DNA from: Bacillota bacterium
GTDB lineage: Bacteria; Bacillota; JAAYKD01
Length of the DNA stretch: 64,000 bases
Direction: 5' to 3'
Assembly (NCBI GenBank): GCA_036744005.1
Contig: DAINOJ010000003.1
Coordinates: 29,403-93,402, forward strand
The notes under the pieces were generated by a model. That model saw nothing but the letters and a program-made list of their open reading frames with translations, was not told the DNA's origin and ran no database searches. Both the position numbers and the translations under genes were made by a program. Below, one piece after another: positions 9,144-41,458 of this stretch (the first letter of the stretch is position 1; every line of letters begins with the position of its first letter).

Positions 9144-9147
9144 GATT

Positions 9148-24500: not shown

Positions 24501-27500
24501 CTGTGTTATCGATCCCAACACTGCCCATGATTTCACTGCGTTCTCTGTGCAAAATCAGGTAGGCAACAGCGAAATCAACACAGCAGACCATACCATTGTC
24601 TTTCATATGCCCTATGGGACTGACGTAACCAATTTGCAACCCCAGTGGACGTTGTCGGCCAATGCTGCGGTGAGCCTAGGGGCTTCCATCCGGGACTATA
24701 GTCAACCTGTTACCATGACTACTCGCTCCGAAAGTGGGGCAGAGCAAGTGTGGCAAATCACATGTGTCGTAGATCCCAACCGAGCCAACGATATTACCCA
24801 GTTTGTGGTGGCGAACCAAGTAGGGAGTAGCCAAATCGATGCGGCGAATCACACGATTGTATTCCACATGCTCTACAACACCGACGTCTCGGTCTTAACG
24901 CCACAAGTATTGATATCGGAAAAAGCCACCCTTTCGCCGGTGTCTGGACTGGTTCGTGATTTTAGATTACCTCAAACCTATGAAGTGACCTCTCAGAGTT
25001 TAGAAGTTCAGAATTGGACCGTGACCTGCGTGGTGGACCCCAATCGTGAAAACAAGATAGTAAGTCTGACCGTGCCAGGGCAAATAGGGCAGACTACTTG
25101 GGACGAAAGCAAGCAAGCCTGGGTGTTCCATGTGCCCTACGGAACCAACATTCAACAACTTACACCGAGTTTGACTCTCTCGGAGGAAGCTTCCGTGAAT
25201 CCAGCCAGTGGTACGACCTTAGATTTCAGCCAAGAGCAAATCTACACCGTGATTGCTCAAGGAGGAGAAATTCAAACTTGGGCCGTCCAATGTATGGTCG
25301 AACCCAACCAAGCAAACGACATCCTCACTTTTGTTGTAGACCGTCAGGTGGGCGAGAGCCTCATCGATGCGGCTCTACATACGGTGACCTTCCATATGCC
25401 CTATGGCACCAACGTCAAGACCTTAAACCCGAGCTTTACACTATCGGAACGGGCCAGCAGTGATGTGGCATCGGGAGTCCCTCGAGATTTTACACTTCCG
25501 GTGACCTACGGTATTCTCTCCGATAGTCAAGACGTACAGCTTTGGACCGTGACCTGTGTGGTGAACCCCAACACGGAAAACCGAATTCTTGGTTTCTCTG
25601 TGCCAAGCCAATCGGGTAGTAGTGTGATCGATACCAATGCACATACCATTACCCTTGCAGTTCCCTATGGCACACCCACTGGTGCGGTCATACCCACCTT
25701 CACCATTTCAGCAAAATCAACGGTAGAACCGGGCATTGGCGCAAGCGTGAATCTCGGGCAGCCGGTTGTCTACACCGTGACCTCTCAAAGTGGAACAGCT
25801 CAAACCTGGACCGTGACATGCAATATTTTACCCAATACCCAAAAGAATATAGAGCATTTTACGGTTCCGGGCCAAATCGGGGATACGGTCATAGACCAGA
25901 TCAACCATACCGTGCGCTTTGAAATGCCGTTTGCGACTCCGGTTACGGCCTTGACTCCAACCCTTGTCCTCTCAGTCGAAGCCAGCGTTTCACCAATCTC
26001 AACAGCTCAAGTCGACTTTTCTCAGCCGCAAACCTTTACAGTGACTGCACAAGATGGCACCAGTCAGGCATATATTGTGACTTGTATCCGTCGCAATACG
26101 GCGAATGATATTGTGAGTTTCCGAGTCAATGGTCAATACGGAAGCACTCAAATCGATTCTGTGAATCACAGCGTCCTCTTCTACTTGTTCCCAGGCACGT
26201 CCGTGAGCGCTCTTGCACCTACCCTAGAATGTTCCACTGGTGCCACGGTTTCACCAGTCAGCGGTAGAGAGCAAAACTTCAGTTCCGCCGTGGTCTACAC
26301 CGTTACCGCTGAAAACGGAACCCCCCAACTTTGGACGGTGACTTATCGCATATACTATGAACCCGAAGAAGAGGTAGCTCCACCGGTTAAACCACCAACA
26401 CCCCCTCCGGAAGATCAACCCTTGAAACCCAAGGAGCTGGAAGAGAAAATCGAACCATTAAAGAAAACCTTTGTTCAGGTGGCAACCGATAGCGCTTCGG
26501 GAATCACTTCCAAAACTGCAACCCTTGCAGGCCGCATCGTTGCAGGTGGCGGGGACTTGACCGTGGGATTCCGCTACCGTCAAGCCGGTCAAAGCGATTG
26601 GATGTATACCGGAACCAGCAGTCAAACCATTGGCAATGGTGGAACGTTCTCCACAACCTTGACGGATCTCTTACCCGGAACCGAATATGAAGCAGAAGCC
26701 AGAGCAGCCAACAGCTTTGGTTTAGGGGAAGGCGGAGTCGTATCTTGGAAGACCACAGCGGCAACAGCACCGAAAGTGGCAACCTATGAAGCCGTTGGGT
26801 TGAGCTTAAATCAAGCTACCCTCACGGGTGCGGTACTGGATGATGGAGGATCTGTTCTCACCAATACCGGCTTCCAATGGGGCTTGAGTGAAGATTCTGC
26901 TTCCGAAGTGAGCACCGGCATCGGTAAACTACTACAAACCACCATTACGGACTTGAAACCGGGTCAGAAAATCAGCTATCGTGCATTTGCCGGCAATGCC
27001 GTTGCGACGACCTATGCTTCTTGGCAAACCTTTACAGTTCCTGGTTTGGTCGTCACCACCTTGAAGCCAACCGAAATCACTCGATCATCGGCAACTTTGC
27101 AAGGTCTCATCGTCGGCAGTAGCAAAATCATCGAAAGCGGTTTCAGTATTAGCCCGGGAGATGTCAATCTCCTCTTGGCAAACCCCAATGCGCAAGGTGA
27201 ATTCTCGGTCAACTTGCAGAACTTAAAACCCGATGCCAAGTACTATTACACGGCCTATGCCAAAACAGCCGTCGGAGAATTCCGTGGCGAAGTTCAAGAG
27301 TTGATACTCGTCAATGACTTCCCGGTGGTAGAAACGTTGGAAGCCACGGAGAAGGCAACCATTGTGGCCAACATCGGTGGCTATGTCATCAAGAACAGTG
27401 GCTATAAGATTACCGACAGTGGCTTTGTCTGGGGTATGGACCCCAATCCCGACCAAAAAATCTCGGTGTCTCCTGGTGAAGACCTACGAACCCTGCAATA

Positions 27501-30500
27501 TAAACTGGTGGGGTTAAAGGGGGGTACCACTTATTACTATCGAGCCTATGCTACGAACGAAAAGGGTACTGGATACGGTAAGACCATGCAGTTTATCACT
27601 GCAAAGGCCCTAAAACCGACAGTGGTGACGCAATCGGTGAGCTTTGACCCTGCCAGCTGGCAATGGGTTCTGGTGGGAAGTGTTGCCAACAACGGTGGCG
27701 TTCCTTTGGTGGAATATGGCTTCCGCATTAGCAGCGATGAAAGCCAATGGGCGAATTTGGTGGTTGGCTTCGACGTGCGTGGGAATTATATCTCGAGAGG
27801 GTTGCAGTTCATGGATGAACTAACACCCGGTACATACTACATGCGTGCGTATGCTTTGAACCCAGGTGGCATGGGAGAAGGGGAAATCCTCTCGTTTAAG
27901 GTGCCCACCAAACCGAGTATCACGGCTGCAGTGGATAGGGAAAGCATTGTATTGGATCATCTCACACTCGTCGGGACAATCACCGATACGGGCGGTTCAG
28001 AGATTTCTTGTGTGACCACTCAATTTAAGGTTCGCAAAGTGGGTGAAAGCGAATGGACTACACTGGGGACCACCCAAGGTGTGTTTGGAATAGGGGATTT
28101 CCGTTTTGATGCCAGCAGCTTGTCCCCCGGAGCGAAGTATGAGCTCATGGCCGAGGCTCGCAACCAAATTGGCTGGGGAAGCAGTGCGGTGGTTTCTTTC
28201 CAAATGAACTATGGCAAAACAGATCGAGATGCGGTAACGTATTTGAAAACACAAGGAAAGACGGCTACCGAGATTGCTACGCTTTTGAAGACCTATTATC
28301 AAGATAGCCCGGCCTCTGCCTTTGCTGCCTTGGTATTTGGAGAATTCAGCTTAAGTGACATCACAGCGGCGATGAAACAATCGACATATGCCACCAGCCA
28401 CCGTAATGTGGCAAACCTCATTCAACAAGCAGGTTACGATGCTAAGGCTCTGACGAAAGTGATGTTAGAGCATTATGACCGTGATGTACTAATGATGGCC
28501 AGCGGGAATCGAGAAGAAGGTGCCTTGCTGTTAGCCAAAGTCAGTGGGTATACTTCTGTTGATCTTGCCAAAGTATGTTTGGAGCTGTTCCAATACGATA
28601 CAGCAAGAACCGTATCCCGATTAAGTACTTATAATTTCTATGGGCAAGACGAAGCATATCGAGCGGCCCTAGAAGTGTATGGACTAGAGTCTATGATACA
28701 ATTTTTGCTTGCCCAAGCGAATAGCTCCTTGCAACGTAGTGGTCAAGGGCGTATGCTTACAATTTTGACGGAAACAACCGCTTTTTTGCGTAACGTTGCG
28801 AAGTTGAGTTCAGAAGAAACGGCAAGTGTGTTAACGCGTTTTCATGCTGGCTTAAGTGCCAAAGAGCTAGCCAATGCGTTCTATTATGCCAAAGAAACCG
28901 TTTTCGAAACGGGCAAGGCCATTGCTTACTTGTTTGGGAGCAATCTTTCTGATATCGCCAGAGCACTAGAAGATACGCCCTTGAAAGAAGAGCGCATCAA
29001 CGACTACCTGATTTTAGACCTCGGAGCATCGGCTTTGGATATGGTGCCCATTGTGGTCGATATCTATAACCACTGGATGGACCCCAAAGAAGGGTGTGCC
29101 ATTATTTTCAAAACCTACTTCAAGTTAGATGCGATTGGTGCGGCGAAAGTTTTATATGCCGCCGGATGGACGGAGAATGTCGTCGATTATCCCGGTTATG
29201 GATTAGGTAATCTCATTTGGACCATGAAGTTACACTATGGCTACACCAGTGATGCGCAGTTGATTGAAGTATTTAAAGCGCTGGGGTTGTCCCCTCTGGA
29301 AGTAGCCAAACGGTTGGTGAACAATTCCGGCTGGCGGTGGTTACCATCATACCGGTTGGGTGGATACACAGCGACCGATGCCGCGGTCTGGCTCAAAGCA
29401 GATTGGGTGAAATACGGTCGTAGAACGCAAATCAGTCAGACCATTAAGATGTGCTATGAGGCCGGTTATGAGGTATCGGACATTGCATCGGCTTTGATTT
29501 TCCACTATGACCTCGAAATTGCTGAGGCCATGGCATTCTTTGTCGACAACATCAATCTGAGCTCGACAGCCATTAACGAAGCATTAACCAAGGCTTATGG
29601 CAAAGATCCTTTACAAAGCGCAGTAGAAAAAATGAAAGGGCAACCGCTGGAGAAGATTCTTTCGACTCTAAAGAGTACGTATGAAGTGAAAGATCCGGTT
29701 GAGGTGACAAATTTACTAATCAAAGCGGGGTATTCGCAGGAAGCCATTTTCGAAAAGATGATTTGGACCTATTTTGAATCGTTTAATCGGCGAGAGCATC
29801 TTGAGGCATTTACGGCATATCTGCAACAAATAGACTCTGGATTGAATCGAAAAGACGCCATGAATGCATTTCTGCGTCGAAATCAACTTGCGGAAGGCCC
29901 AGAACACGCTGCCGGTTTCCTCAGGCATTCTGCACAGTATTCTATGAGTGAAATCGCGGAAATCTTCCAAAACGAGTACCAAATAACCATTGCAGAGGCG
30001 TTGACCGTCTTCTTTAGCACCTTTGGAGCAGGCAAAGAAGTAGAGTATTACCCGGTTGTCGTCAAGGCCTACGATATGGACGTTAGCAGTTACATCAGAT
30101 ATCAACACAAACGGGGCATTGACGCAACCGAGAGTACCAAAGAACTCATCGACAACTTCAAACTGACCAATCAGATTGAAATCGCAGAAGTCCTCTACAA
30201 AAGTGATTACAATAAAGAAGCCATTGTCCAGAGTTTCCTGCAAGTATACTTCTCCGGTTTTCTAAGTCCGGAAGTAATAACGCTCATGAATGAGTTGGAT
30301 GAGAAGGTATTTAAGCAAGGATTGAGCGTACAAATCGAAACACTGACACAAAAAGGTACGTTGCAACCCGTAACAAAGGTGATTACAACCTTGTACGCCG
30401 CGGGGATTTCGCTAACAGAGATCATCCGAACTCTGAAAGATTTATATGCACTTTCTCAGAAAGAAGCTCATGACAGTACCATGGCGGTGTCTCTGTTCTC

Positions 30501-32190
30501 CTACGAAGAGGTGTCACAGGCAGTTCAGCTGGTTTATGGCGGTGATTTTGTGGTCGCGATGATACGCTTGTGGCGAACGAAAAAGTGGGGAAATGCGGAG
30601 TATTGCTTTAGAGAATTGGAACGGTCTTCAGGGATCAACGATCGGGTAGCCATCTTCCGTTACTTACGCATTGCGGGTTTCAGCGAGGAAGAAGCAGCAG
30701 TCGGTTTATACTGGGTGGCGCGAGATGACATGCTCGTGACGTTGAAAGAGGCATACAACCTGCAAAGCGCACTCGAACTCGCCCAAAAGTTGAAACAAGT
30801 CACCGGAGATTTAACGAGTCGATTCTATAGTACGACCTTTGCGAATTACTTAGTATCATTGTTCCCGCAGACTACCAATTACGAAATCGTAAAAGCCTTC
30901 TTAGCGATTGGTCTGCAGATACCACAAACAGGCACCGATTCCATAGCCGGATGGCTGCGCTCGCATGCGAACGTGGGTAAACGCGATAACAGGTTGGCTG
31001 CTTACTTGGGAACGAATAACAATGGATTGAACTTGGAAGTGCATACAGCGATTGAGATTTTAGAAAAAATGGGCTACAATATTCAAGATGCCGTGTATTG
31101 GGCTCTGCAATCAGGATACCAGTGGAAAGATTTTTTGCAGCATATGGTATATCGTTTTGCTCCAGCGAGTTTCCCGACATCTTATTATGATAACAATTCG
31201 TCCTCCAAGTTTGTTGTCATGTATCTAAAGGATTATTATTCTGCACTCGATATTGCAGCAGGCTTACTGGGCTATCATAAGTCCGCAGGAAGGGTACTTG
31301 CGGATCTCATCAGTGGTGGATTTTCCGTGGAAGAAGCGACCTACGCTACATTATGGCAAGGAGGAGGAGCCGCAGTCGATATTGTGGTCAGTTTGGTGGA
31401 TGATAGCATTGGACGAGCCAATACGGCAAGAGATCAATCGTTACGACTGAACGCCGTGCAAGCTACCGAGATAGCGTTCTACAACAGTTTAGCGGTTGCG
31501 TATGATCGTAAAGTAAAAGGACTTCCTTATGAGGACCCCATTACCTTGGAGGATTTAGCGGCAAGTTTGGTCAAGTATGGTCCCAGTGCACAAAGTGGGT
31601 GGAGCAGCCAATATTTCAGCCACTGGGAAGTGCTGACTGCCATGCAAAATATTACCCGAATTTACTTAGAACTCGCCAAGGTGGACATGCCCTACACGGA
31701 AATTGCCCTAGCCACGTTGCGCTTGGCAGGACTCTCGGTTTCGGATGCAGCCGAGATGATGGCAGCACATAAAGTGGGCTTGAGTACCGGTGATGTGATT
31801 ATGAGTGTGCTGGGGTTAGGAAACGAGTGGTTCGATGCCGTCAAAATTCTTGCCGGAAGCGGCTATAGCTTTAGTGACTCAATGTCCGCTGTTTACAATA
31901 ACAGAACCTATCACATGGTGATCGGTATTAGTGTACTCAGTAGCTTGGTCACAACCGCGGTATCGAAACTTAGCAGTATCGCTTCACTGGGAACCTACAT
32001 TAATTATGTCAAACAAACCGCTGTTTTAGGATTTATGATTGGTCAGAATGCTAGTTATACGGATATGTTGCTGCATTTACCCAATTTCTATTTGGGATTC
32101 TTCGGAAAATTGGCCTATGCCGGGGGTAGAGTAGGTTATACTTATATCCCGAAAGATTACCGTGTTGAAACGTATGTGCCTATTCCATAA
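18517..32190 (+). CDS. Giant secreted/surface repeat protein (4557 aa): signal peptide, Ig-like beta-sandwich repeats, InlB B-repeat (Flg_new-type) arrays, Fn3-like repeats, Pro-rich linker, ~1200-aa alpha-helical repeat array, hydrophobic C-terminal tail
   Basis: RBS GAGGAGG 7 nt before ATG. N-terminal hydrophobic signal-like segment. Repeat classes read directly from the translation; no LPXTG, SLH or choline-binding motifs seen. Confidence 0.85.
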   Translation: MFRLGTNQRFIRVIHWLLIFSMIVPQISVVAVVQAQENEQTPRQESVFLSEISSDPVFLRDVPAGSTVQFASYDWLVLDPANGMLIKQSPYGTPVPYDSSTPGGNVYFQPSNASNIGFLLNTTFLSSLSALDQSRIRNVNWEIGPQGHEWEHIVGAKVGLLNTMQVQTEPVASQLQPFLADSWLLTWHAVEYDTYAWASGLSGNYYIGSDLLPTVETDYSVGHNVHPVMYLSPNTPTLSGAVIPPQNEILSFSVPNQRGESVFDYDTSTLTFTVTDLVDLTSIAPQITVSPGATSQVVNGVATDLSIPTTCTVTSSDGFTKNWVLVAQVLSTKTDITEFSVDEMQLVGEDNYATINRSLHTVHFLVPADTDVTQLTPSIYAMMDANIVPETKTTQDFTSPVAYTVTAEAGNSQNWLVTCVRVGDTVPYTVEHYHQDLVGLNYSLNHTQTLSGTLGSTVTASTQSSSGFVENITQANRITSGVTQLDGSLTLRLYYDRTLHRVTYEEDGGSSVADLASLRYGSTLTTPQTPVRTGYQFLGWFTDVDRTQAASFPMILTADTTFYAKWQSTLGEPGDITGFTVRNQKGNSSITRYDGYGSIDLVMPAGSDVQFLSPVITTAAGTTISPASGEIRDFRGSDQYGVEYTASYGEDSTLAWYVRMTLEEEPKEIRTFHVPGQLGDSIINPTDHTVYFVMPFGSDVTTLRPSITVPNWDTVFTGYWWGVQNYYSPTAYDAEDFSYPVEFHVVGSDSIEQSWTATCRVQAETAGYISSFTVPSQVGNSFIDMVNHKVVFHMPYGTDATHLEPTIVVPAGSTLQPLADSVRDYSGLVYFQVTAPGGSPQLWTVQCIVDQNTEKSIAGVTLEKSKGVVIDSALHTVTIKMPAETDVTSLAPQFQLPAGAEIYPSSGIAKDFTSPRQYLVYAQDGSKQLWTVTVLLLGNVTVEHYQMMPSGDWYGVERVNYYYDQQPSSTFTAEAATFVGFVENTTHSSRVPAGTVQAGKTLTLKLYYDRLPYTVQFVENGGSEIADLTHVLYGTWPTRPTPPVKTGYRLENWYTDPEWTNAYQFNVDLTQDLVLYAKWEVTPPVLSPAGGKYAPGITVTADIDCYYTLDGSDPRTSSGVFLAAGASIAIDQTTLVKSCSKLAGEYSPVEETTYEIVTTKYLVSFESNHGSAVEAQEIAYGHRATLPQTPTQYGYTFVHWCSDIHLSEPYDFSTAVYEDITLYAKWTFATLTITFDTQSGSTIEPVSAWFGTYLTEPTPPSKAGYTFKEWNPAFPSTMPGEDITLTAIWTANQYTLHFNSDGGSTVADQLQTYLQPISAPVAPTKTGYTFAGWSPAIPNVMPMSDLTVTAQWTVNQYTITFDSDGGTAVLPITQDYGSTLISPENPTKTGYEFGGWTPFLPATMPAENLTLTAYWGANFYTVTLDTNGGNLIDPIRREVNTVLTAPANPVRAGYIFTSWQPSFPSTMPANNMTITAQWQANSITLSFDSAGGSEVASIVQLCDTTWTPPANPSRAGYTFVAWNPLLPSKIPTSNQTHTAMWSINSYTISFTTAGGSDVASMTEAYNTPLTQPTNPTRTGYTFSGWNPTFPTKMPAENRTLVAQWTPNLYTVTFDSKGGSAVTPVTQEYLKAITLPSNPSKAGHTFTGWYTDAEATLLYDFNTLITGNRTLYAGWQIQSYLVRFEDWDGELLKEETIIYNTASNPPVSPDRMPTAQYFFEFTGWGGDTSKITSATTFTAVYESILRQYTVYYLDTTGTEISTQTVAYDNWAAEPQQPYREGLTFMGWYQDSALINAVTFPVLIQGDMSFYASFKRPGNEILSFEVAGQVGSTSIDSYFNIVSLVVPWHTDRTQLVTTITVSPGALVSPASGVATDLSNGKNFTVTAEDGSQKQWLVMVGEAESPNEIETFKVTGQNGDSIIDPVARTVVFHMPFGSNVTALRPEVTLTYGAYCNIGWFPDMDYGGRNPVDFTYQVKYTVITDQKGSYSYWQEWLVSCVIDPNTAHDFTAFSVQNQVGNSEINTADHTIVFHMPYGTDVTNLQPQWTLSANAAVSLGASIRDYSQPVTMTTRSESGAEQVWQITCVVDPNRANDITQFVVANQVGSSQIDAANHTIVFHMLYNTDVSVLTPQVLISEKATLSPVSGLVRDFRLPQTYEVTSQSLEVQNWTVTCVVDPNRENKIVSLTVPGQIGQTTWDESKQAWVFHVPYGTNIQQLTPSLTLSEEASVNPASGTTLDFSQEQIYTVIAQGGEIQTWAVQCMVEPNQANDILTFVVDRQVGESLIDAALHTVTFHMPYGTNVKTLNPSFTLSERASSDVASGVPRDFTLPVTYGILSDSQDVQLWTVTCVVNPNTENRILGFSVPSQSGSSVIDTNAHTITLAVPYGTPTGAVIPTFTISAKSTVEPGIGASVNLGQPVVYTVTSQSGTAQTWTVTCNILPNTQKNIEHFTVPGQIGDTVIDQINHTVRFEMPFATPVTALTPTLVLSVEASVSPISTAQVDFSQPQTFTVTAQDGTSQAYIVTCIRRNTANDIVSFRVNGQYGSTQIDSVNHSVLFYLFPGTSVSALAPTLECSTGATVSPVSGREQNFSSAVVYTVTAENGTPQLWTVTYRIYYEPEEEVAPPVKPPTPPPEDQPLKPKELEEKIEPLKKTFVQVATDSASGITSKTATLAGRIVAGGGDLTVGFRYRQAGQSDWMYTGTSSQTIGNGGTFSTTLTDLLPGTEYEAEARAANSFGLGEGGVVSWKTTAATAPKVATYEAVGLSLNQATLTGAVLDDGGSVLTNTGFQWGLSEDSASEVSTGIGKLLQTTITDLKPGQKISYRAFAGNAVATTYASWQTFTVPGLVVTTLKPTEITRSSATLQGLIVGSSKIIESGFSISPGDVNLLLANPNAQGEFSVNLQNLKPDAKYYYTAYAKTAVGEFRGEVQELILVNDFPVVETLEATEKATIVANIGGYVIKNSGYKITDSGFVWGMDPNPDQKISVSPGEDLRTLQYKLVGLKGGTTYYYRAYATNEKGTGYGKTMQFITAKALKPTVVTQSVSFDPASWQWVLVGSVANNGGVPLVEYGFRISSDESQWANLVVGFDVRGNYISRGLQFMDELTPGTYYMRAYALNPGGMGEGEILSFKVPTKPSITAAVDRESIVLDHLTLVGTITDTGGSEISCVTTQFKVRKVGESEWTTLGTTQGVFGIGDFRFDASSLSPGAKYELMAEARNQIGWGSSAVVSFQMNYGKTDRDAVTYLKTQGKTATEIATLLKTYYQDSPASAFAALVFGEFSLSDITAAMKQSTYATSHRNVANLIQQAGYDAKALTKVMLEHYDRDVLMMASGNREEGALLLAKVSGYTSVDLAKVCLELFQYDTARTVSRLSTYNFYGQDEAYRAALEVYGLESMIQFLLAQANSSLQRSGQGRMLTILTETTAFLRNVAKLSSEETASVLTRFHAGLSAKELANAFYYAKETVFETGKAIAYLFGSNLSDIARALEDTPLKEERINDYLILDLGASALDMVPIVVDIYNHWMDPKEGCAIIFKTYFKLDAIGAAKVLYAAGWTENVVDYPGYGLGNLIWTMKLHYGYTSDAQLIEVFKALGLSPLEVAKRLVNNSGWRWLPSYRLGGYTATDAAVWLKADWVKYGRRTQISQTIKMCYEAGYEVSDIASALIFHYDLEIAEAMAFFVDNINLSSTAINEALTKAYGKDPLQSAVEKMKGQPLEKILSTLKSTYEVKDPVEVTNLLIKAGYSQEAIFEKMIWTYFESFNRREHLEAFTAYLQQIDSGLNRKDAMNAFLRRNQLAEGPEHAAGFLRHSAQYSMSEIAEIFQNEYQITIAEALTVFFSTFGAGKEVEYYPVVVKAYDMDVSSYIRYQHKRGIDATESTKELIDNFKLTNQIEIAEVLYKSDYNKEAIVQSFLQVYFSGFLSPEVITLMNELDEKVFKQGLSVQIETLTQKGTLQPVTKVITTLYAAGISLTEIIRTLKDLYALSQKEAHDSTMAVSLFSYEEVSQAVQLVYGGDFVVAMIRLWRTKKWGNAEYCFRELERSSGINDRVAIFRYLRIAGFSEEEAAVGLYWVARDDMLVTLKEAYNLQSALELAQKLKQVTGDLTSRFYSTTFANYLVSLFPQTTNYEIVKAFLAIGLQIPQTGTDSIAGWLRSHANVGKRDNRLAAYLGTNNNGLNLEVHTAIEILEKMGYNIQDAVYWALQSGYQWKDFLQHMVYRFAPASFPTSYYDNNSSSKFVVMYLKDYYSALDIAAGLLGYHKSAGRVLADLISGGFSVEEATYATLWQGGGAAVDIVVSLVDDSIGRANTARDQSLRLNAVQATEIAFYNSLAVAYDRKVKGLPYEDPITLEDLAASLVKYGPSAQSGWSSQYFSHWEVLTAMQNITRIYLELAKVDMPYTEIALATLRLAGLSVSDAAEMMAAHKVGLSTGDVIMSVLGLGNEWFDAVKILAGSGYSFSDSMSAVYNNRTYHMVIGISVLSSLVTTAVSKLSSIASLGTYINYVKQTAVLGFMIGQNASYTDMLLHLPNFYLGFFGKLAYAGGRVGYTYIPKDYRVETYVPIP
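21550..23960 (+). repeat. Array of ~11 InlB B-repeat / Flg_new-type ~70-aa repeats within the giant gene
   Basis: Units such as YTVTFDSKGGSAVTPVTQEYLKAITLPSNPSKAGHTFTGWYTD...LYAGW recur with diverged sequence. A further isolated copy lies at ~20000-20220. Confidence 0.7.
23960..26340 (+). repeat. Array of ~13 Ig-like ~87-aa repeats within the giant gene
   Basis: Consensus F.VP.Q.G.S.ID...HT..FHMPYGTDVT.L.P...LS..A.VSP.SG...DF..P..YTVT...G..Q.W.VTC.VDPN. Earlier copies lie at ~19240-19790 and ~20230-21320. Confidence 0.7.
26470..28210 (+). repeat. ~7 Fn3-like ~85-aa repeats within the giant gene
   Basis: Units with TATL.G.I...GG......GF.Y........W......................L.PGT.Y...A.A.N..G.G.G, following the linker EPEEEVAPPVKPPTPPPEDQPLKPKE. 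Confidence 0.6.
28215..31900 (+). repeat. ~19 diverged copies of an unassigned alpha-helical repeat (core L..AGYS.eeIa..L...Y) within the giant gene
   Basis: Recurring units such as LIQQAGYDAKALTKVMLEHYD, MCYEAGYEVSDIASALIFHYD, LLIKAGYSQEAIFEKMIWTYF, LRIAGFSEEEAAVGLYWVARDD and ILEKMGYNIQDAVYWALQSGY, spaced ~60-70 aa apart. Confidence 0.6.
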
Positions 32191-32212: not shown

Positions 32213-32262
32213 ATCGTGCCGGTTCCTGTGAAAAGGGAACCGGCACGATTTATTTGTATTTT
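32213..32262 (+). terminator. Strong intrinsic terminator after the giant gene
   Basis: ATCGTGCCGGTTCC-tgtgaaaa-GGAACCGGCACGAT (14-bp stem) followed by TTATTTGTATTTT. Confidence 0.85.
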
Positions 32263-32354
32263 ATTCTAATTTTCTATTGACATATGCTGTGATGTTTGAT
32301 AGTTTTAGAGAGAAGATGTGTTTTGCACAGTAAAGAATGGTTAGGAGGAGGATG

Positions 32355-33203
32355 ATGAGACAAACAGCAGTCTCGGCAGGAAAGCTTCTTTGGGGGAAGT
32401 TACTCTTCATAACATTGGGTGGCTTGATGTTATCGCGTATTGAGAACGGAAGTTCGTATGCATCCCATCTCTTTGTTCTCATCTTGGCATTGTATGAGAG
32501 GACTCCGGTCTTGGAGTCAAAACGCAACCCTTCTCGTCAAGCATGGCTGGGCTTTGCCATGGTCATTTTGAGCGGGTTTTTCCTCACCGGAGTGGCTGGT
32601 TATCTTACCGATGGTGTTTTAGGTCTTCTAGGGTATCGACAAGAGACCTCACATTACATAGAGTTTTTGGGCAGTGGTTGGTCACTGCTTTTTCGTACCT
32701 CTTTATTGGCCCCCATTGCCGAAGAGGTTTTCTTTCGTGGCATTTTATTAAAACGATTGCTGCCTCATGGCATCCTTTTTGCTGCGATTGCTTCTTCGTT
32801 TCTCTTTGCCATACAGCATGGCGTGCTCATTCAGGTTTTCTATGCATTCTTTGTGGGTCTGTTTTTGTGTGCGGTGACTTATCGGTACGGATTACGCTGG
32901 GCAATCGTCATCCACATCTTGAACAATTTGACGATGTCGAGCATTCTTCTGTTGCATTACAATGGCTTACCCGCATCCTACTTAACTAACATCGAAAATA
33001 TCCTTACTGCGTTGGGTGGCCTTTCGATGCTGTTGCTGTTAAAGCAGCGGCGTGAAGTTAAACCCTGGTGGAGAAATTTTCTGCTGGGACAAGAGCAAAC
33101 AAAAGAGAAACTATGGCATTTCTTCAAAGAACATTGGATGTGGACGTATGTTTTATTCAACGTAGTGGTCATGATACCATTTCTGATTTCTCCCTTGGAA
33201 TAA
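32355..33203 (+). CDS. CPBP-family intramembrane metalloprotease (CAAX protease / Abi-type), paralog 1
   Basis: Catalytic-region motifs EEVFFRGILLKRLLPHG and FAIQHG, ending at HILNNL; polytopic. Start at ATG 32355 after GGAGG (ATG 32352 possible). Confidence 0.75.
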   Translation: MRQTAVSAGKLLWGKLLFITLGGLMLSRIENGSSYASHLFVLILALYERTPVLESKRNPSRQAWLGFAMVILSGFFLTGVAGYLTDGVLGLLGYRQETSHYIEFLGSGWSLLFRTSLLAPIAEEVFFRGILLKRLLPHGILFAAIASSFLFAIQHGVLIQVFYAFFVGLFLCAVTYRYGLRWAIVIHILNNLTMSSILLLHYNGLPASYLTNIENILTALGGLSMLLLLKQRREVKPWWRNFLLGQEQTKEKLWHFFKEHWMWTYVLFNVVVMIPFLISPLE

Positions 33204-33241
33204 CGATAGATAGATAAAAATGAGAGAAGAGAGGGAATTAT

Positions 33242-34132
33242 TTGAAACAAGCACTTACGTCTGCAGGGAAGTTACTTTGGAAGCAGATGGCATTCATTAC
33301 CATTGTAGCATTGCTGTTTCGCAAAAATGCGCAAAGCGCGAATTGGGCGGTGCTGGCTTTTGTGCTCTTTGTGGCTTTTCGCGAAAAATTACCGGTTTGG
33401 AAAGAAGAATGTACCCCAACGGGGAAACGATTTGCCGAAATTCTGTTGTTGATCTTTGGGTTTCGTTTGATGACACTGCAGTTGTTTGGGATCATTCAGC
33501 AGTTTTTACAACCCTTGGGGTTAGAACAAAATTTGGAAGCCTATTCCGAATTCTTGGGTTCAGGGTGGAGCATGTTTTTTCTAACTGTGCTGGTTGCCCC
33601 ATTGGGAGAAGAAATTTTATACCGAGGGCTTCTTCTACAGCGCTTGTTGCCACATGGAAAAGGAATGGCGATCTTTCTCCCTGCACTTCTTTTTGCTTCA
33701 CAACACGCCATCTTGACCCAATCCATCCATACTTTTTTTATGGGCGTTTTATTGGGTGCGATTGCTATGCAATACGGGTTGCGTTGGTCGATTCTGCTGC
33801 ATGCTTTGAACAATTTTTTTGTCTTCCTGCAAAGCTCATTGCACCAGCACGACCATGGAATTCAGCAGATGAACAGTGAGTATACCTTGTGGATGAGTCA
33901 AATCCTGAACTGGGTTTTTGTGGGATTGGGTGTACTGGGGATCCTGTACTTCATATGGAAATGGCGGAAGCAACAGCAGGACTGGAAGTCCTGGTGGTTG
34001 GAGTATAGGCCACAACCGGGGCAATGGTGGGAAGTTCTGACCAATGGTTGGATGATCAGTTATTTGGCGTTTAACTTTTTGAGTATGTTACTTTTTCTGC
34101 TAGCACCTCAAATTACCGAGTTGCCACATTAA
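33242..34132 (+). CDS. CPBP-family intramembrane metalloprotease (CAAX protease / Abi-type), paralog 2
   Basis: EEILYRGLLLQRLLPHG, FASQHA, HALNNF. N-terminus (KQALTSAGKLLWKQMAFITI) is paralogous to the upstream gene (RQTAVSAGKLLWGKLLFITL). TTG start after GAGAGGGAA. Confidence 0.7.
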   Translation: MKQALTSAGKLLWKQMAFITIVALLFRKNAQSANWAVLAFVLFVAFREKLPVWKEECTPTGKRFAEILLLIFGFRLMTLQLFGIIQQFLQPLGLEQNLEAYSEFLGSGWSMFFLTVLVAPLGEEILYRGLLLQRLLPHGKGMAIFLPALLFASQHAILTQSIHTFFMGVLLGAIAMQYGLRWSILLHALNNFFVFLQSSLHQHDHGIQQMNSEYTLWMSQILNWVFVGLGVLGILYFIWKWRKQQQDWKSWWLEYRPQPGQWWEVLTNGWMISYLAFNFLSMLLFLLAPQITELPH

Positions 34133-34204: not shown

Positions 34205-35119
34205 ATGGAAGTCATTGCGGTGGAAAAAATTCTACGAGAAATTGAAGAACGGCTCTCGGTTTTTGAGAATTTGTATACCTATATACGATTGGTTGAACCC
34301 GAGAAGAAAGAAGCCTGCCATCTACTGGAAAGCAGGGACGATGTAACAAAAGAAACCTGCTATTCTTTTTGGGGGCGGAGTGTGCCTTGTGAAAACTGTA
34401 TATCCATGCGAGCAGTTCAGGAAAGAAAATCGTTTTCCAAAATTGAAATCAGCGATGGTCGTACTTATTTTGTACAGACAGTGCCCTTTTTTATGGAGGG
34501 TGAGACGTATATTGTTGAAATGTTGAAAGACATTACAGAAGATCAAGTGTTGCTGGTGCAAGACCAAGGAGCCATGAGTATAGAGGAATACATTCGTGTC
34601 ATCAACGTCAAATTGGTTACCGACGAGTTGACCGGGTTGTATAATCGACGATTTATTGCAGAGCGGCTACCGGCTGATATTTATTATGCCAAATCACACG
34701 ATTACCCCATTGCCATTGTCATGGCAGACATTGATTATTTTAAGAAAATCAATGACACCTATGGGCATTTGGTGGGAGATTGTGTGTTGAAAGAACTGGC
34801 GAATCTCATGCATCAAAGTGTTTCTGAGCCCATGCATTGGGTGGCACGTTATGGCGGAGAAGAGTTTATGATGGTGCTGAATCATATTGAACAAGAACAA
34901 GTGTGGAGTATGGTCGAACGCTTGCGGCAGAGCATGGAAGCTCATATTTTTCATTGCAATGGACAGAACCTAAGGGTGACTTGTAGCTTTGGCATTAGTT
35001 TTATCCACGACACCGACAGTAACGTGACCAAAGCCATCGAAGATGCCGATCGTTTATTGTATCAAGCCAAGCAATCCGGCAGAAATCGTGCTATTTTGGA
35101 ACCGGCAAAAACCGAATAA
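34205..35119 (+). CDS. Diguanylate cyclase (GGDEF domain, GGEEF active-site motif) with N-terminal Cys-containing sensory domain
   Basis: LTGLYNRRF, ADIDYFKKINDTYGHLVGD, RYGGEEFMM. N-terminal ~130 aa carries CHLL...CYSFWGRSVPCENCISMRAV. Confidence 0.8.
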   Translation: MEVIAVEKILREIEERLSVFENLYTYIRLVEPEKKEACHLLESRDDVTKETCYSFWGRSVPCENCISMRAVQERKSFSKIEISDGRTYFVQTVPFFMEGETYIVEMLKDITEDQVLLVQDQGAMSIEEYIRVINVKLVTDELTGLYNRRFIAERLPADIYYAKSHDYPIAIVMADIDYFKKINDTYGHLVGDCVLKELANLMHQSVSEPMHWVARYGGEEFMMVLNHIEQEQVWSMVERLRQSMEAHIFHCNGQNLRVTCSFGISFIHDTDSNVTKAIEDADRLLYQAKQSGRNRAILEPAKTE

Positions 35120-35127
35120 GGAAACTT

Positions 35128-35159
35128 CCGCTACACCTTAGGGTGTGGCGGATTTTTTT
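35128..35159 (+). terminator. Intrinsic terminator
   Basis: CCGCTACACC-ttag-GGTGTGGCGG followed by ATTTTTTTA. Confidence 0.75.
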
Positions 35160-35247: not shown

Positions 35248-36096
35248 ATGATTCGAGTTCAACACGTGTACCATGATTACGAAGGTAAAGGGCATTATGC
35301 CGTGGCTGATATTTCTTTTGTTGCTGAAAGTGGCAAGATTTTTGGCTTCTTAGGTCCAAGTGGGGCTGGGAAATCCACAGTGCAAAATATTATGACCGGG
35401 CTACTCCCTTTGCAAAAAGGGGAGGTCTTTTACGATGAGTTATCGGTTCGCCATGTGAAGACCGCTTTTTTTAACCGTGTAGGCGTCTCGTTTGAGCAGC
35501 CCAATGTGTATACCGCCCTCACCGGATATGAAAATCTGGCGTATTTTGCGGCACAATTCTCGGTGCCAACGCTAGATCCCATGAAGCTACTCGACCGAGT
35601 GGGCTTACGTGACTCGGTGCATAAGAAAGCTTCCGAGTATTCAAAGGGCATGAAACAGCGCTTGACCTTAGCCAGGGCATTGATCAACCAAGGAGATTAC
35701 TTGTTCTTAGATGAACCGACTAGTGGGCTCGACCCGGCGACATCGGTTTTAGTCAGAGAGTTGATTCGTGAGCAAGCCAAACGAGGTGCAACGATTTTTC
35801 TAACGACCCATAATATGGAGTTGGCCGATAGTTTGTGTGATACCGTTGCGTTCTTGTCGGACGGGAAAATTCAAGCGATGGATACCCCCAATGCTCTCAA
35901 ACGGACCTATGGCACCAGTCAAGTGAGGGTTACTGTATTAAAGGATGGCAGAGAAGAAGATTCTTTTTTTGACTTGCGTCAGCCACAAGCATTTCATGAG
36001 TTCCTAAAGGAGAACAATGTATTGAAAGTACATTCCATGGAAGCAACCTTAGAAGAAATCTTCCTGAGAGTGACCGGAAAGGAGCTGAAATCATGA
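35248..36096 (+). CDS. ABC transporter ATP-binding protein
   Basis: Walker A GPSGAGKST, ABC signature YSKGMKQR, Walker B LFLDEPTSGLD. RBS AGGAGG. Confidence 0.85.
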   Translation: MIRVQHVYHDYEGKGHYAVADISFVAESGKIFGFLGPSGAGKSTVQNIMTGLLPLQKGEVFYDELSVRHVKTAFFNRVGVSFEQPNVYTALTGYENLAYFAAQFSVPTLDPMKLLDRVGLRDSVHKKASEYSKGMKQRLTLARALINQGDYLFLDEPTSGLDPATSVLVRELIREQAKRGATIFLTTHNMELADSLCDTVAFLSDGKIQAMDTPNALKRTYGTSQVRVTVLKDGREEDSFFDLRQPQAFHEFLKENNVLKVHSMEATLEEIFLRVTGKELKS

Positions 36097-37061
36097 AAGC
36101 TATAGGGGCTTTGGTCCTACAAGACTTGAAACGCTTATTGAAAAATGCGTTGTTTTGGGTGGTTTCGGTGACCCTCGTTCTGATTGTGCTCTTGGTGCAA
36201 TTCGTTTTCCCTAAAAGCGTGAGCACGGATGCGCCCTTGCTGGTTTCTTTCCAAGCACCCTCCTACAGTACCATGACCCGAGTAGTGGACTCCGAAGCTG
36301 CTTTACGAAAAGTCGTAGCAGAGGAGCAAGCGATTGGTTTTTTAGGAGATGCCGAGGGGAATCTCGCCATTTTGCATCATGGTTTATCCGAAAAAACCAT
36401 TGCTTCGGTATTATTGACGTTGCAACATCAGCAAGCGCCTGTAAGAAGCGAAGTCCTGCAGCCGCAAGAGCCAATCCCTTTTAACCTACATTGGTTACCG
36501 GTGCTGATTAGTTTTGAAGCTTTGGTGCTGGGTTTTATTTTGAGTGGAACACTCATGTTGTCGGAAAAACAAGAAGGCACAGTTCGCGCCATGCGCATCT
36601 CTCCCTTGAGCGAAGTGCGTTACATCATCGCAAAAATGATCCTGTTTGCATTCATCGGCAGCTCATATGCCGGGTTGATGGCCTTGTTCACGGTGGGACC
36701 TTGGATCAATTGGGTTGCATTTCTTTTGGTGAGCGCTTTGGGGAGTGCGTTGTTTGCCTTAATCGGTTTGGCGGTTACCACCCCTTTTCGCGATATGAAC
36801 TCCTGGTTCTTTTCTACGGCACTGTTGCTTTCGGTGAATATGCTGAGTGCATTGGGGTATAGCAATCCGTCGATACAACCTTGGTGGATGCGTATGCTGC
36901 CATCATACCCATTTCTCATGAGTTATGATGACATTCTGTTTGGAAGCGGGTGGCCACAAGGGGTATGGCTGACCATCGGACTATGGATGTTGGTTGCGAT
37001 TCCTGTGGCTCTCCTGGCGGTTCGGCGAGTCTTTTTTGCAAAAGGTGGTGTTTGGGCTTGA
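36093..37061 (+). CDS. ABC-2-type transporter permease
   Basis: Polytopic membrane protein. ATG overlaps the stop of the ATPase gene (ATGA). Confidence 0.7.
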   Translation: MKAIGALVLQDLKRLLKNALFWVVSVTLVLIVLLVQFVFPKSVSTDAPLLVSFQAPSYSTMTRVVDSEAALRKVVAEEQAIGFLGDAEGNLAILHHGLSEKTIASVLLTLQHQQAPVRSEVLQPQEPIPFNLHWLPVLISFEALVLGFILSGTLMLSEKQEGTVRAMRISPLSEVRYIIAKMILFAFIGSSYAGLMALFTVGPWINWVAFLLVSALGSALFALIGLAVTTPFRDMNSWFFSTALLLSVNMLSALGYSNPSIQPWWMRMLPSYPFLMSYDDILFGSGWPQGVWLTIGLWMLVAIPVALLAVRRVFFAKGGVWA

Positions 37062-38047
37062 AAGGTGTCGTATCACAAGTCAAAAAAGAGATGGTCTTAG
37101 TCTCTCGCAGTGGCTTATCGTTGTACATGACCTTAGCTCCTGCCCTCATGGCTTTGGTGTTCCTTTTGGTGTTTGGCAGTATGCAAAGTAGTAGCCCCCG
37201 ATTGGCGGTCATGCACGATATGCCGACCGAAGTCGTTGCCAAACTGGAACAAGTAGCCGAACTCGAGCGGTTTACCAGCGAAAACTCTTTGCGACGTCGC
37301 ATAGAAGGACCCGATGCTCTGGCTGGGGTGCTTATATACGAAGGAGTGGCAACGGTTTTAACGGAAGGGAACGAGGGGGAGAGTTTTGTAAAGGCGATGC
37401 ATCAGCTGGTATCGAGTGCTTTAGCGGCAGAGATACCGGCATTTACAGAAGAGATTTTACCGGGAAATGGCGGATTGGCCATGCAAATCAGTCGTATCAG
37501 TGTGTTTCTATTGGCGTTATTCGTAGGGGGAGCTACTTTGGGATTATCGGCGGTAGATGAACGAGAAACCGGCGTGATTCGAGCCTTCACAGTAAGTCCC
37601 TTTGGCTTATGGGACTACATGCTTAGTAAATGGTTGCCGGCTTTGCTGATCGGTGCATTGGGTGTGACTGCTGCAGCAGCAGTCATGGGTTTGTGGAAGG
37701 AACTACCTCTTCTGCTGATGTTAAGTATGTGTGGCGCAGGGGTAGGAGCATTCTCGATCTTTATTTTGGCAGGATTTGCTAAAAACCAAATTGCTGCCAT
37801 TGGAGTGATGAAACTACTGATGCCACTCATGCTCATGGTGCCGATTTCGGCTTTCTTTGTGGCAGAGCGTTGGCAGTGGTTGTATTACGCCTTTCCCATG
37901 TATTGGCAAAGCAAAGCCTTGCAGAGTATTTTTACCGGAGAACCGGTGACATGGTTTTTGATGCTCTCGTTCTTGGTTAGCTTACCTTGGGCAGTAGGAG
38001 CTGCCATGATTTTTCGTCGACAAACAATGTGGAAGGGATGGAGGTGA
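37058..38047 (+). CDS. ABC-2-type transporter permease (second subunit)
   Basis: Polytopic. Start placed at TTG 37058 overlapping the upstream stop (TTGA); ATG 37091 is an alternative. The ORF-track start at 36950 would overlap the previous gene by 110 nt. Confidence 0.6.
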   Translation: MKGVVSQVKKEMVLVSRSGLSLYMTLAPALMALVFLLVFGSMQSSSPRLAVMHDMPTEVVAKLEQVAELERFTSENSLRRRIEGPDALAGVLIYEGVATVLTEGNEGESFVKAMHQLVSSALAAEIPAFTEEILPGNGGLAMQISRISVFLLALFVGGATLGLSAVDERETGVIRAFTVSPFGLWDYMLSKWLPALLIGALGVTAAAAVMGLWKELPLLLMLSMCGAGVGAFSIFILAGFAKNQIAAIGVMKLLMPLMLMVPISAFFVAERWQWLYYAFPMYWQSKALQSIFTGEPVTWFLMLSFLVSLPWAVGAAMIFRRQTMWKGWR

Positions 38048-38193
38048 AGACTGTGGAAACGTATTGGTATTGGATTATCGCGGGCGTAGTGCTATTGGCG
38101 GCGTTTAAGGTTTGGTATGTGCCCAAATGGCTCAAACAACAAGCCGATAAACGAGCTGAAAAGCAACGCTTACTGGAGAAGGACGACGAATGA
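38038..38193 (+). CDS. Small single-pass membrane protein (51 aa)
   Basis: MEVKTVETYWYWIIAGVVLLAAFKVWYVPKWLKQQADKRAEKQRLLEKDDE: one TM helix and a charged tail. Start overlaps the permease stop; its stop overlaps the TetR start (ATGA). Confidence 0.45.
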   Translation: MEVKTVETYWYWIIAGVVLLAAFKVWYVPKWLKQQADKRAEKQRLLEKDDE

Positions 38194-38804
38194 GTAAAAT
38201 GAAGTGGAAAGCCGAGCAGACGAGAAACCCGCTTTGGCTACAAGAGGAATTGTGGAATGCATCCTTGGATGTATTCTCGATGCAGGCCTATGGAGAAGCT
38301 TCTTTGAATGAAATCATCCGTAAGGCCGGGATGAACAAAGGAAGCTTTTATTACCGATTCTACGATAAGCTGGATTTGTATCTCTCACTTCTGACCCGCA
38401 TGGCAGACGAGAAGCTGACCATGGTTTCGCAGGGCCAAATGCGAGCGACCGGAAAAGATTTCTTTGAAGATTTTCGGCAAATTGCCATGCTCTCATTGCG
38501 ATTTGCACAACAAGAACCGCGTTATATGGGCTTGTGGCGTAGGTTCATGTCTGAGGATCATGAAATAAAGCGAATGGTGCACGAAGAATTTGGACCCATG
38601 TCGCAAGATGCCATTGGAGCTATGGTAGAAATGGCCAAAGCACAAGGAAAAATTCGACCCAACAGCTCCACCGTTTTGGTCAGCCACATGATTTCGGCAC
38701 TGTTGAACAGCATTGATCAGATGATTGTGCCCAACGGCAGCGAAGAAGAAATGATGGTACAAATTGACGAGCTCATTGAGATGTTGAAACATGGAATTCG
38801 TTAA
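38190..38804 (+). CDS. TetR/AcrR-family transcriptional regulator
   Basis: N-terminal HTH (SLNEIIRKAGMNKGSFYYRFYDKLDLY) and helical C-terminal ligand domain. Confidence 0.75.
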   Translation: MSKMKWKAEQTRNPLWLQEELWNASLDVFSMQAYGEASLNEIIRKAGMNKGSFYYRFYDKLDLYLSLLTRMADEKLTMVSQGQMRATGKDFFEDFRQIAMLSLRFAQQEPRYMGLWRRFMSEDHEIKRMVHEEFGPMSQDAIGAMVEMAKAQGKIRPNSSTVLVSHMISALLNSIDQMIVPNGSEEEMMVQIDELIEMLKHGIR

Positions 38805-39905: not shown

Positions 39906-39947
39906 GGATGCAACGTATACTTTAAAAACAATAAGGAGGTGTAAACC

Positions 39948-40583: not shown

Positions 40584-40616
40584 GCAAAGATCTTGCAGAA
40601 AAGGAGGTGTCCAAGC

Positions 40617-41441: not shown

Positions 41442-41458
41442 AGTGAGGAGGTGATTTT

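What the first reader, a model, noticed from the sequence alone, without database searches (positions are those of the whole stretch)
32355..34132. Tandem duplication of CPBP intramembrane proteases with conserved active-site motifs
Both paralogs keep the EExxxR, FxxxH and HxxxN catalytic motifs and share a near-identical N-terminus (AGKLLW), but have diverged elsewhere. That suggests subfunctionalisation rather than a decaying copy.
Basis: seen in the sequence. Interest (0 to 1): 0.45.

Follow-up and report, generated by a model that had tools for sequence, protein, structure and literature searches.

The report
Two old paralogous CPBP membrane proteases
Two neighbouring genes encode intact but long-diverged copies of a very common bacterial membrane-embedded protease (CPBP/Rce1/Abi type) in an uncultured bacterium. 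Both are kept by selection, so this is an ordinary paralog pair whose exact job is unknown.

Summary

The duplication is old, not recent. A and B synonymous sites are saturated, and a relative (L007) carries a B ortholog (49% identity). All copy types are under purifying selection (dN/dS about 0.1-0.3). "Not a decaying copy" is therefore supported. "Subfunctionalisation" is not shown. Related genomes carry one or two copies drawn from three types (A+B, B+C, C alone), which looks like birth-and-death turnover.

By terminators, the pair sits in an inferred A-B-diguanylate cyclase operon, upstream of an ABC-2 exporter and a TetR gene. No bacteriocin-like peptide genes lie nearby.

Type B was seen only in genomes that also carry the neighbouring 4557-aa surface protein (3 of 3 lineages). 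That protein's C-terminal anchor region is unusually conserved. This is a weak lead.

Verdict: new members of a known kind, low to moderate interest.

The parts
32213..32249 (+). Intrinsic terminator ending the upstream 4557-aa surface-protein gene; it separates that gene from the CPBP transcription unit.
   Evidence: 15-bp stem with 9 GC pairs followed by a T-run; the sequence was read.
32277..32305 (+). Inferred promoter of the CPBP operon: TTGACA, 17 nt, TAGTTT, with TGn just before the -10 element.
   Evidence: Read from the sequence. TTGACA and TGATA(G/T)TTT are conserved in the upstream region of relative L019 even though that region is only about 75% identical overall. The consensus scan did not list it because the -10 element is weak. 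This is an inference.
32355..33203 (+). CPBP_A: 282-aa CPBP/Rce1-like glutamic intramembrane endopeptidase (type A), the faster-diverging copy.
33242..34132 (+). CPBP_B: 296-aa CPBP/Rce1-like glutamic intramembrane endopeptidase (type B), TTG start.
34205..35119 (+). Soluble diguanylate cyclase (GGDEF, GGEEF active site, Cys-rich N-terminal domain), probably co-transcribed with A and B.
   Evidence: PF00990, E 5.5e-45; TIGR00254. The gap after B is 73 nt with no terminator-like site. A CPBP gene also lies directly upstream of the GGDEF gene in L020-L025 and L107, but not in L007.
35127..35152 (+). Intrinsic terminator closing the inferred A-B-GGDEF operon.
   Evidence: 11-bp stem with 7 GC pairs followed by TTTTTTT.
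35248..38804 (+). Conserved neighbouring module: DrrA-like ABC ATPase, two ABC-2 permeases and a TetR regulator, with its own promoter-like site at 35182-35210. This is context, not shown to act with the CPBPs.
   Evidence: Pfam and NCBIfam; promoter and terminator scan; same module downstream of the CPBP gene(s) in L007, L020-L025 and L107.
18517..32190 (+). 4557-aa secreted surface protein (Listeria-Bacteroides repeats, DUF5018, Fn3) with a signal peptide, one C-terminal hydrophobic helix (residues 4464-4486) and a conserved tail. It is a possible, unproven partner of type B.
   Evidence: Pfam; hydropathy. The last ~100 aa are 88% identical in L106, against 45% over the C-terminal 2000 aa compared with L007. 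It is present in all three B-type lineages and absent from the C-only locus L020.

Best explanation
A and B are two functional, anciently diverged paralogs of a small, lineage-restricted subfamily of CPBP (Rce1/Abi-type) glutamic intramembrane endopeptidases. They are expressed from one promoter, probably together with a diguanylate cyclase.

Inferred mechanism, by homology to Rce1: each is a bundle of about 9 helices. A substrate segment in or next to the membrane enters a cavity, and the Glu pair of motif 1 (E123/E124) activates water. H155 (motif 2) and H187/N191 (motif 3) complete the site.

The two copies keep the catalytic core (50% identity) but differ strongly in helices 2-3 and in the C-terminal helices (21-23% identity). 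They therefore most likely recognise different substrates or partners (inferred).

Across related genomes the locus carries one or two genes drawn from three types (A, B, C). The pair is thus one state of a gain-and-loss family of specificity variants, not a fixed two-part division of labour.

The physiological substrate is not known. The most likely role is processing of, or protection against, envelope-associated peptides or proteins. Type B tracks the neighbouring giant surface protein.
For: Family, motifs and fold are shown for both copies.

Purifying selection is shown for all three types.

The age of the split is shown by saturated A-B dS, by B orthologs at 48-49% identity in L007 and L106, and by the A ortholog followed by the start of B in L019.

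Copy-type turnover in otherwise syntenic loci is shown: window A+B, L007 B+C, L020-L025 and L107 C only. L007 has about 1 kb extra DNA carrying the B-type gene relative to L020.

The CPBPs diverge faster than their neighbours between the window and L007/L020: A 33% and B 49%, against amidase 85%, ABC ATPase 80%, TetR 68%, GGDEF 63% and permeases 55-62%.

The operon structure is inferred from two strong terminators with no terminator-like site between the genes and from a conserved promoter.

The subfamily is rare. Only about six 50%-identity clusters match the profile over their full length, out of 1.84 billion representatives, while 25,314 broader CPBP proteins match at E<=1e-3.
Against: No substrate, no activity and no expression data exist. 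The catalytic competence of both copies is inferred from conserved residues only.

The three-type tree has only 72-78% NJ bootstrap support. A and C share a ~10-residue deletion after helix 7. A could therefore be a fast-evolving ortholog of C, which would mean one duplication plus one loss.

Co-transcription with the GGDEF gene is not conserved in L007.
Confidence: 0.8

Rival explanations
1. Orphan Abi-type immunity or resistance genes. A and B each protect the cell against a different membrane-active peptide (bacteriocin) made by competitors, possibly together with the adjacent DrrA-like ABC-2 exporter and TetR regulator.
For: Abi/CPBP proteins give bacteriocin self-immunity, and LAB bacteriocin loci carry tandem arrays such as plnTUVW (PMC4467070, citing Kjos et al. 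2010, J Bacteriol 192:2068). Fast divergence, variable copy number and type turnover are typical of immunity genes. Between the window and L019, divergence drops abruptly from the A gene (third codon positions 60% identical) to the first 37 codons of B (89% identical; Fisher p=2e-4), which suggests allele replacement at A. An ABC-2 exporter plus TetR lies downstream in every relative. The subfamily member P0020 sits next to an ABC ATPase gene.
Against: The window holds no bacteriocin-like small ORF, no double-glycine leader, no C39-peptidase transporter and no modification enzymes. The permeases do not match the permease half of the ABC-permease/CPBP fusion family NF041647. The linkage to the exporter is proximity only, with separate transcription units.
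Confidence: 0.25
2. Type B is a dedicated processing, sorting or shedding protease for the C-terminal membrane anchor of the neighbouring 4557-aa surface protein. This would be functionally analogous to myxosortase-type CPBP enzymes or to SpdC-type 'surface protein display' factors. Type A (or C) would serve another client.
For: B-type genes were found only where the giant gene lies within 4 kb (window, L007, L106). The C-only relative L020 lacks the giant gene, lacks B, and has lost RsgI and part of the sigma-factor gene beside it. Those are separate deletions in one neighbourhood. The giant protein has a signal peptide and a single C-terminal hydrophobic helix plus tail. That tail is 88% conserved over the last ~100 aa, against 45% over the C-terminal 2000 aa. 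CPBP enzymes are proposed, and for MYXO-CTERM shown, to be sorting enzymes (bioRxiv 10.1101/2023.06.07.544157; PMC11980579).
Against: There are only three positive lineages and one clear negative, and they are closely related, so the co-occurrence may be shared ancestry. The giant gene has its own terminator. In L007 four genes separate it from B. The tail has no Cys signature, no Arg-rich end and no match to any NCBIfam sorting domain. No second protein in the window carries this tail. The Mrt models score 20-25 bits against cut-offs of 75-130.
Confidence: 0.2
3. Signalling role. The CPBP proteins control the co-transcribed diguanylate cyclase, or produce or destroy a peptide signal, as Abx1 does with CovS, SpdC with WalK, or MroQ with AgrD.
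For: The A-B-GGDEF operon is inferred from terminators. A single CPBP gene directly precedes the GGDEF gene in L020-L025 and L107. Several of the best hits outside the tight subfamily are AgrC-like histidine kinase-CPBP fusions (P0021, P0041, P0079). Abx1-CovS is a precedent (PMC3578759).
Against: The cyclase shows no hydrophobic membrane segment in its sequence (read) and no obvious cleavage target. In L007 two opposite-strand genes separate the CPBPs from the GGDEF gene. No CPBP-diguanylate cyclase link was found in the literature library.
Confidence: 0.1
4. One copy is a decaying or redundant duplicate from a recent tandem duplication.
For: A diverges faster than B (33% against 49% identity to the L007 copies). 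A also lacks the C-terminal E(Y/H)(R/K)PxxGxW motif kept by B, C, P0020 and, more weakly, P0168.
Against: Both ORFs are intact, with ribosome-binding sites. All invariant family residues are kept. dN/dS for A is 0.09-0.16. The AF2 model of A is confident. A-B dS is saturated. The same A and B sequences recur across several metagenome samples.
Confidence: 0.03

Closest known systems
Rce1 / type II CAAX prenyl endopeptidase (MmRce1, PDB 4CAD)
   Different: Only 14-15% identity. There is no evidence of prenylated CAAX substrates in bacteria. A and B have two subfamily-specific N-terminal helices carrying SxGKLLW, and extra C-terminal helices.
SpdC/LyrA of Staphylococcus aureus (PDB 6U0O) and the SpdA/B/C 'surface protein display' Abi-domain proteins
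   Different: 12-13% identity. SpdC works as a partner of the glucosaminidase SagB and of WalK (own knowledge). No glucosaminidase or WalK-like gene lies next to A and B.
Abi bacteriocin-immunity proteins (PlnI, PlnLR, SkkI; tandem plnTUVW)
   Same: Same Pfam family. Occurrence as adjacent paralogs. Fast evolution and variable copy number.
   Different: No bacteriocin structural, export or regulatory genes are nearby. Immunity was not tested.
Myxosortase-type CPBP sorting enzymes (MrtX/MrtC/MrtP, MrtJ, MrtS)
   Same: CPBP core. Genomic association with a large surface protein that has a C-terminal hydrophobic segment.
   Different: Scores are far below the model cut-offs. The neighbour lacks the tripartite Cys-containing signal and the Arg cluster.
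NF041647 ABC-transporter-permease/CPBP fusion proteins, and AgrC-like kinase-CPBP fusions
   Same: The CPBP half of NF041647 is the best curated match for A and B (46-50 bits). An ABC-2 exporter lies one gene downstream.
   Different: A and B are stand-alone proteins. The whole-protein score is far below the cut-off of 435. The local permeases do not match the fusion's permease half.

Membership tests
CPBP / Rce1-like (Pfam PF02517) | Profile match above the curated gathering score | tested here: met
   A scores 63.9 bits and B 62.1 bits against a cut-off of 22.4.
CPBP / Rce1-like (Pfam PF02517) | Motif 1 EExxxR, motif 2 FxxxH, motif 3 HxxxN/D | tested here: met
   All three are present at residues 123, 151 and 187 in both copies. 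The residues are invariant in the 96-sequence alignments.
CPBP / Rce1-like (Pfam PF02517) | Multi-helix membrane fold of Rce1/SpdC | tested here: met
CPBP / Rce1-like (Pfam PF02517) | Endopeptidase activity dependent on the motif Glu and His residues | not testable with these tools
   Needs biochemistry or genetics.
Abi bacteriocin-immunity proteins | Encoded beside bacteriocin structural gene(s) or a double-glycine-leader peptide and its export genes | tested here: not met
   No GG-leader ORF among 1261 small ORFs, and only spurious-looking intergenic ORFs. No C39 transporter or modification enzymes in the window.
Abi bacteriocin-immunity proteins | Confers protection against a cognate peptide | not testable with these tools
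   Needs an experiment.
Myxosortase-type sorting CPBPs (Mrt core, MrtJ, MrtS) | Match to the NCBIfam models above cut-off | tested here: not met
   Mrt_core scores 19.7-21.1 against 100, MrtJ 22.8-24.6 against 75, MrtS 24.3 against 130.
Myxosortase-type sorting CPBPs (Mrt core, MrtJ, MrtS) | Cognate proteins with a tripartite C-terminal signal (Cys motif, TM helix, Arg cluster) | tested here: not met
   The giant protein's tail has one hydrophobic helix but no Cys and no basic end. It has no NCBIfam match.
MroQ (AgrD leader peptidase) | Match to NF046050 above cut-off, and an agr-type locus | tested here: not met
   A scores 16.5 bits against a cut-off of 270, and B has no hit. No agrBDCA-like genes are nearby.
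ABC permease-CPBP fusion (NF041647) | Single polypeptide with an ABC-2 permease half and a CPBP half, scoring above 435 bits | tested here: not met
   Only the CPBP half matches (46-50 bits, profile positions about 470-635). The neighbouring permeases have no NCBIfam hit.
Anti-phage 'Abi' (abortive infection) systems | Match to a known defence-system protein model | tested here: not met
   No PADLOC hit for A or B.

The most novel reading that the evidence does not exclude
Type-B CPBP is the cognate intramembrane protease for a previously undescribed C-terminal anchor or sorting domain. That domain is a single hydrophobic helix plus a ~70-aa conserved tail ending in ...GRVGYTYIP, carried by giant adhesin-like proteins of an uncultured deep-branching lineage. 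This would be a new protein-sorting or shedding pair that works like myxosortase/MYXO-CTERM but lacks its Cys-containing tripartite signal. Type A/C would serve a different client tied to the diguanylate cyclase and ABC-2 module.
Probability: 0.12. Interest if true: 0.6.

Novelty: new member of a known kind. Interest (0 to 1): 0.2.

Why it matters
CPBP/Abi proteins are among the most abundant uncharacterised membrane proteins in bacteria, and very few have known substrates. This pair adds little to that picture by itself. It shows that two intact paralogs can persist under purifying selection while the locus swaps copy types between close relatives. If the association of type B with the giant surface protein held up in more genomes, it would point to a testable protease-substrate pair and a new C-terminal anchoring signal. 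Otherwise this is routine annotation: two CPBP family intramembrane glutamic endopeptidases.

Tried and rejected
dS is saturated (NG86 2.9; YN00 fails), so it is uninformative. Ortholog comparisons were used instead.
- **Genome-collection scan with the family alignment:** it returned only 4 distant loci (30-38% identity), none from this lineage.
- **Metagenome scan:** the patterns came from the generic catalytic core, so it returned 80 distant relatives (24-45% identity) and no new subfamily members. It was used only as a background set, in which 1-2 of 84 loci carry a second CPBP gene.
- **Profile against PDB sequences:** nothing found.
- **Bacteriocin hypothesis:** no GG-leader or other plausible small peptide ORF.
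- **Anti-phage Abi:** no PADLOC hit.
- **Riboswitch or other RNA element:** no Rfam match in the whole window.
- **Rosetta-stone link to the ABC-2 permeases:** the local permeases do not match NF041647.
- **Known sorting-domain match for the giant protein's tail:** none.
- **Literature link between CPBP and diguanylate cyclases:** none found.
- **Taxonomy:** the EF-Ts gene's best named relatives are only 35-41% identical and belong to several phyla, so the organism could not be placed.
- **First bootstrap script:** it timed out and was rerun with a faster method.

Full report
**What is there**

Two same-strand ORFs fill the reported interval. A is 32355-33203 (282 aa; ATG three bases after AGGAGGAGG). 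B is 33242-34132 (296 aa; TTG six bases after GAGGG). The gene caller used on identical metagenome contigs gives the same two products. The TTG start and ribosome-binding site of B are conserved in a relative.

Both match Pfam Rce1-like/CPBP well above the curated cut-off. They align over their whole length at 35% identity, E 1e-53. EExxxR, FxxxH and HxxxN sit at residues 123, 151 and 187 in both. In a 96-sequence alignment of the wider family that includes both copies, the eleven invariant columns are P120, E123, E124, R128, G129, G139, F151, H155, G168, H187 and N191.

S7 and K10 are invariant, and G9, L12 and W13 are nearly invariant, in 10 sequences.

**Age and selection**

A and B are too diverged for a direct dN/dS: dS is 2.9 or undefined. 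Orthologs give usable estimates.
- The A ortholog in L019 (83% aa identity) gives dN/dS 0.09-0.16, lowest in the catalytic core.
- B-type genes in L007 against L106 (89% aa identity) give 0.17-0.31.
- C-type genes give 0.10-0.23.
- The flanking amidase gives about 0.045.

All copies are therefore constrained, though less tightly than a housekeeping neighbour. Neither copy is decaying.

**Relatives and locus history**

The exhaustive profile search found 25,314 CPBP proteins at E<=1e-3. Only about six 50%-identity clusters match over the full length including the N-terminus. Word-indexed searches found almost nothing else. All close relatives come from metagenomes.

Four syntenic loci are informative.
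- **L019** has A followed by the start of B.
- **L007** has the giant gene, then SLH/RsgI/sigma and the amidase on the other strand, then a B-type gene (49% to B), then a third type, C (286 aa). Two inverted genes follow, then the GGDEF gene and the ABC-2 module.
- **L106** has the end of the giant gene, then the amidase, then B-type.
- **L020-L025 and L107** have the amidase, a single C-type gene, the GGDEF gene and the ABC-2 module. Where upstream sequence is available, no giant gene is present.

L007 and L020 are sister taxa (amidase 91% identical), and both are equally distant from the window (amidase 85%). L007 has about 1 kb extra DNA carrying the B-type gene, and L020 lacks RsgI and part of the sigma-factor gene.

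An NJ tree (Kimura distances, 200 bootstraps) makes the ten-member subfamily monophyletic (100%). It gives (A,(B,C)) with 72-78% support. A and C share a ~10-residue deletion after helix 7, so ((A,C),B) with a fast-evolving A cannot be excluded.

Either way the duplication predates these lineages, and copy content varies: A+B, B+C, or C alone. That fits birth-and-death of variants better than a fixed subfunctionalised pair.

Between the window and L007/L020 the CPBPs are the fastest-diverging genes apart from the giant protein. A is 33% identical and B 49%. The giant protein's C-terminal 2000 aa are 45% identical (compared with L007 only). Other neighbours are 55-85% identical.

**Transcription context**

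A strong terminator (32213-32249) follows the giant gene. A second one (35127-35152) follows the GGDEF gene. No terminator-like site lies between the coding regions of A, B and the GGDEF gene. A TTGACA-17-TAGTTT element with an extended -10 (32277-32305) is conserved in L019.

I therefore infer an A-B-diguanylate cyclase operon. The cyclase has GGEEF and no hydrophobic segment in its sequence (read; domain match). The next unit has its own promoter-like site. It encodes a DrrA-like ATPase, two ABC-2 permeases and a TetR regulator.

**Function**

Nothing here identifies a substrate.

Against a classical bacteriocin-immunity role: there is no GG-leader or credible small ORF, no C39 transporter and no modification genes.

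Against anti-phage Abi: there is no PADLOC hit.

Against membership in curated CPBP subfamilies (Mrt, MroQ, ABC-permease fusion): all scores are far below cut-off, and the local permeases do not match the fusion family.

In favour of an immunity or resistance-like role: fast divergence, type turnover, the neighbouring exporter plus TetR, and an abrupt change in divergence in L019. There the A gene is 60% identical at third codon positions while the first 37 codons of B are 89% identical (Fisher p=2e-4). That suggests allele replacement at A. Tandem Abi genes such as plnTUVW are a known pattern (PMC4467070).

A second lead concerns type B. It occurs only with the giant surface protein, in three of three lineages, and the C-only relative has lost the giant gene, B and RsgI through separate deletions. 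The giant protein has a signal peptide and a single C-terminal hydrophobic helix. Its last ~100 aa are 88% conserved, against 45% for the C-terminal 2000 aa. CPBP sorting enzymes are a precedent (bioRxiv 10.1101/2023.06.07.544157; PMC11980579). However, the tail lacks their Cys and Arg signature and matches no known sorting domain, and the sample is tiny and phylogenetically non-independent.

A third lead is signalling. It rests on the co-transcribed cyclase and on AgrC-like kinase-CPBP fusions among the nearest outgroup hits, with Abx1-CovS as a precedent (PMC3578759).

**Verdict**

The pair consists of two functional, anciently diverged CPBP glutamic intramembrane endopeptidases of a rare subfamily in an uncultured lineage. 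The EF-Ts gene has no named relative above 41% identity. They are new members of a very well-known family in an arrangement (adjacent paralogs) already known elsewhere.

Tandem pairs are nonetheless uncommon among random relatives of this clade, at 1-2 of 84 loci. Interest is low. The one thread worth following is the association of type B with the giant protein.

Noticed in passing
window 18517-32190 (residues 4464-4557 = about 31906-32187): The 4557-aa surface protein has an unannotated ~1300-aa helical C-terminal region. It ends in one hydrophobic helix plus a tail that is 88% identical to the L106 ortholog over the last ~100 aa, while the C-terminal 2000 aa are only 45% identical to L007. 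The tail matches no Pfam or NCBIfam model. It may be a new anchoring domain.
   Followed up: partly
L019 1-1104 against window 32246-33352: Divergence drops abruptly between neighbouring genes of the same two genomes. The A gene is 80% nt identical (60% at third positions). The first 111 nt of B are 93% identical (89% at third positions). Fisher p=2e-4. This suggests recombination or allele replacement confined to A and its upstream region.
   Followed up: partly
window 8250-9269 (-): EF-Ts has metagenomic relatives at 62-65% identity, but its best named relatives (Eremiobacterota, Armatimonadota, Peptococcia, Chloroflexi MAGs) are only 35-41% identical. The window comes from a deep, uncultured lineage with no representative among the GTDB species genomes scanned.
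   Followed up: partly
window 39114-42079: The DUF6754 protein (39114-39905) is 93% identical to its L020 ortholog, more conserved than the amidase (85%) or the ABC ATPase (81%). It is followed by three conserved ORFs with no Pfam match (211, 282 and 206 aa). The block is absent from the L007 locus.
   Followed up: no
window about 38040-38193 (+): A small ORF encodes a single-helix membrane peptide (...YWYWIIAGVVLLAAFKVWYVPKWLKQQADKRAEKQ...) between the second ABC-2 permease and TetR. A 46-51-aa gene is called at the same place in L007 and L020-L023.
   Followed up: no
window 49116-56726 (+): A second giant secreted protein (2536 aa; signal peptide, one TIG domain, otherwise no Pfam match) is unrelated to the first. 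It lies downstream of a 7TM histidine kinase and a LuxR-type response regulator on the opposite strand.
   Followed up: no
window 34205-34610 (N-terminal 135 aa of the GGDEF protein): The diguanylate cyclase has a Cys-rich N-terminal domain (CX13CX9CXXC) with only a sub-threshold match to DUF6171. It has no RxxD inhibitory site upstream of GGEEF. This may be a metal or redox sensor domain.
   Followed up: no
L015 5542-5631, L016 7264-7353, L017 3039-3128: In a distant subfamily member (P0168) the single CPBP gene is preceded by an identical 29-aa ORF (MNAKYSFMEAAPLIGFIEEHKKDKVINEL) and a 446-aa protein with no Pfam match, and is flanked by an IS21 element. This may be a mobile peptide/CPBP cassette.
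   Followed up: no
L008 123-3174: The nearest hit in the genome collection, a Coriobacteriia MAG, has two CPBP paralogs (351 and 371 aa). They are separated by an opposite-strand 236-aa membrane protein and followed by a sigma-54-type activator. This is another example of paired CPBP genes.
   Followed up: no
P0021, P0041, P0079: Proteins of 789-814 aa fuse an AgrC-like histidine kinase to a C-terminal CPBP domain of this clade. The fusion suggests a functional link between peptide-sensing kinases and CPBP proteases.
   Followed up: no
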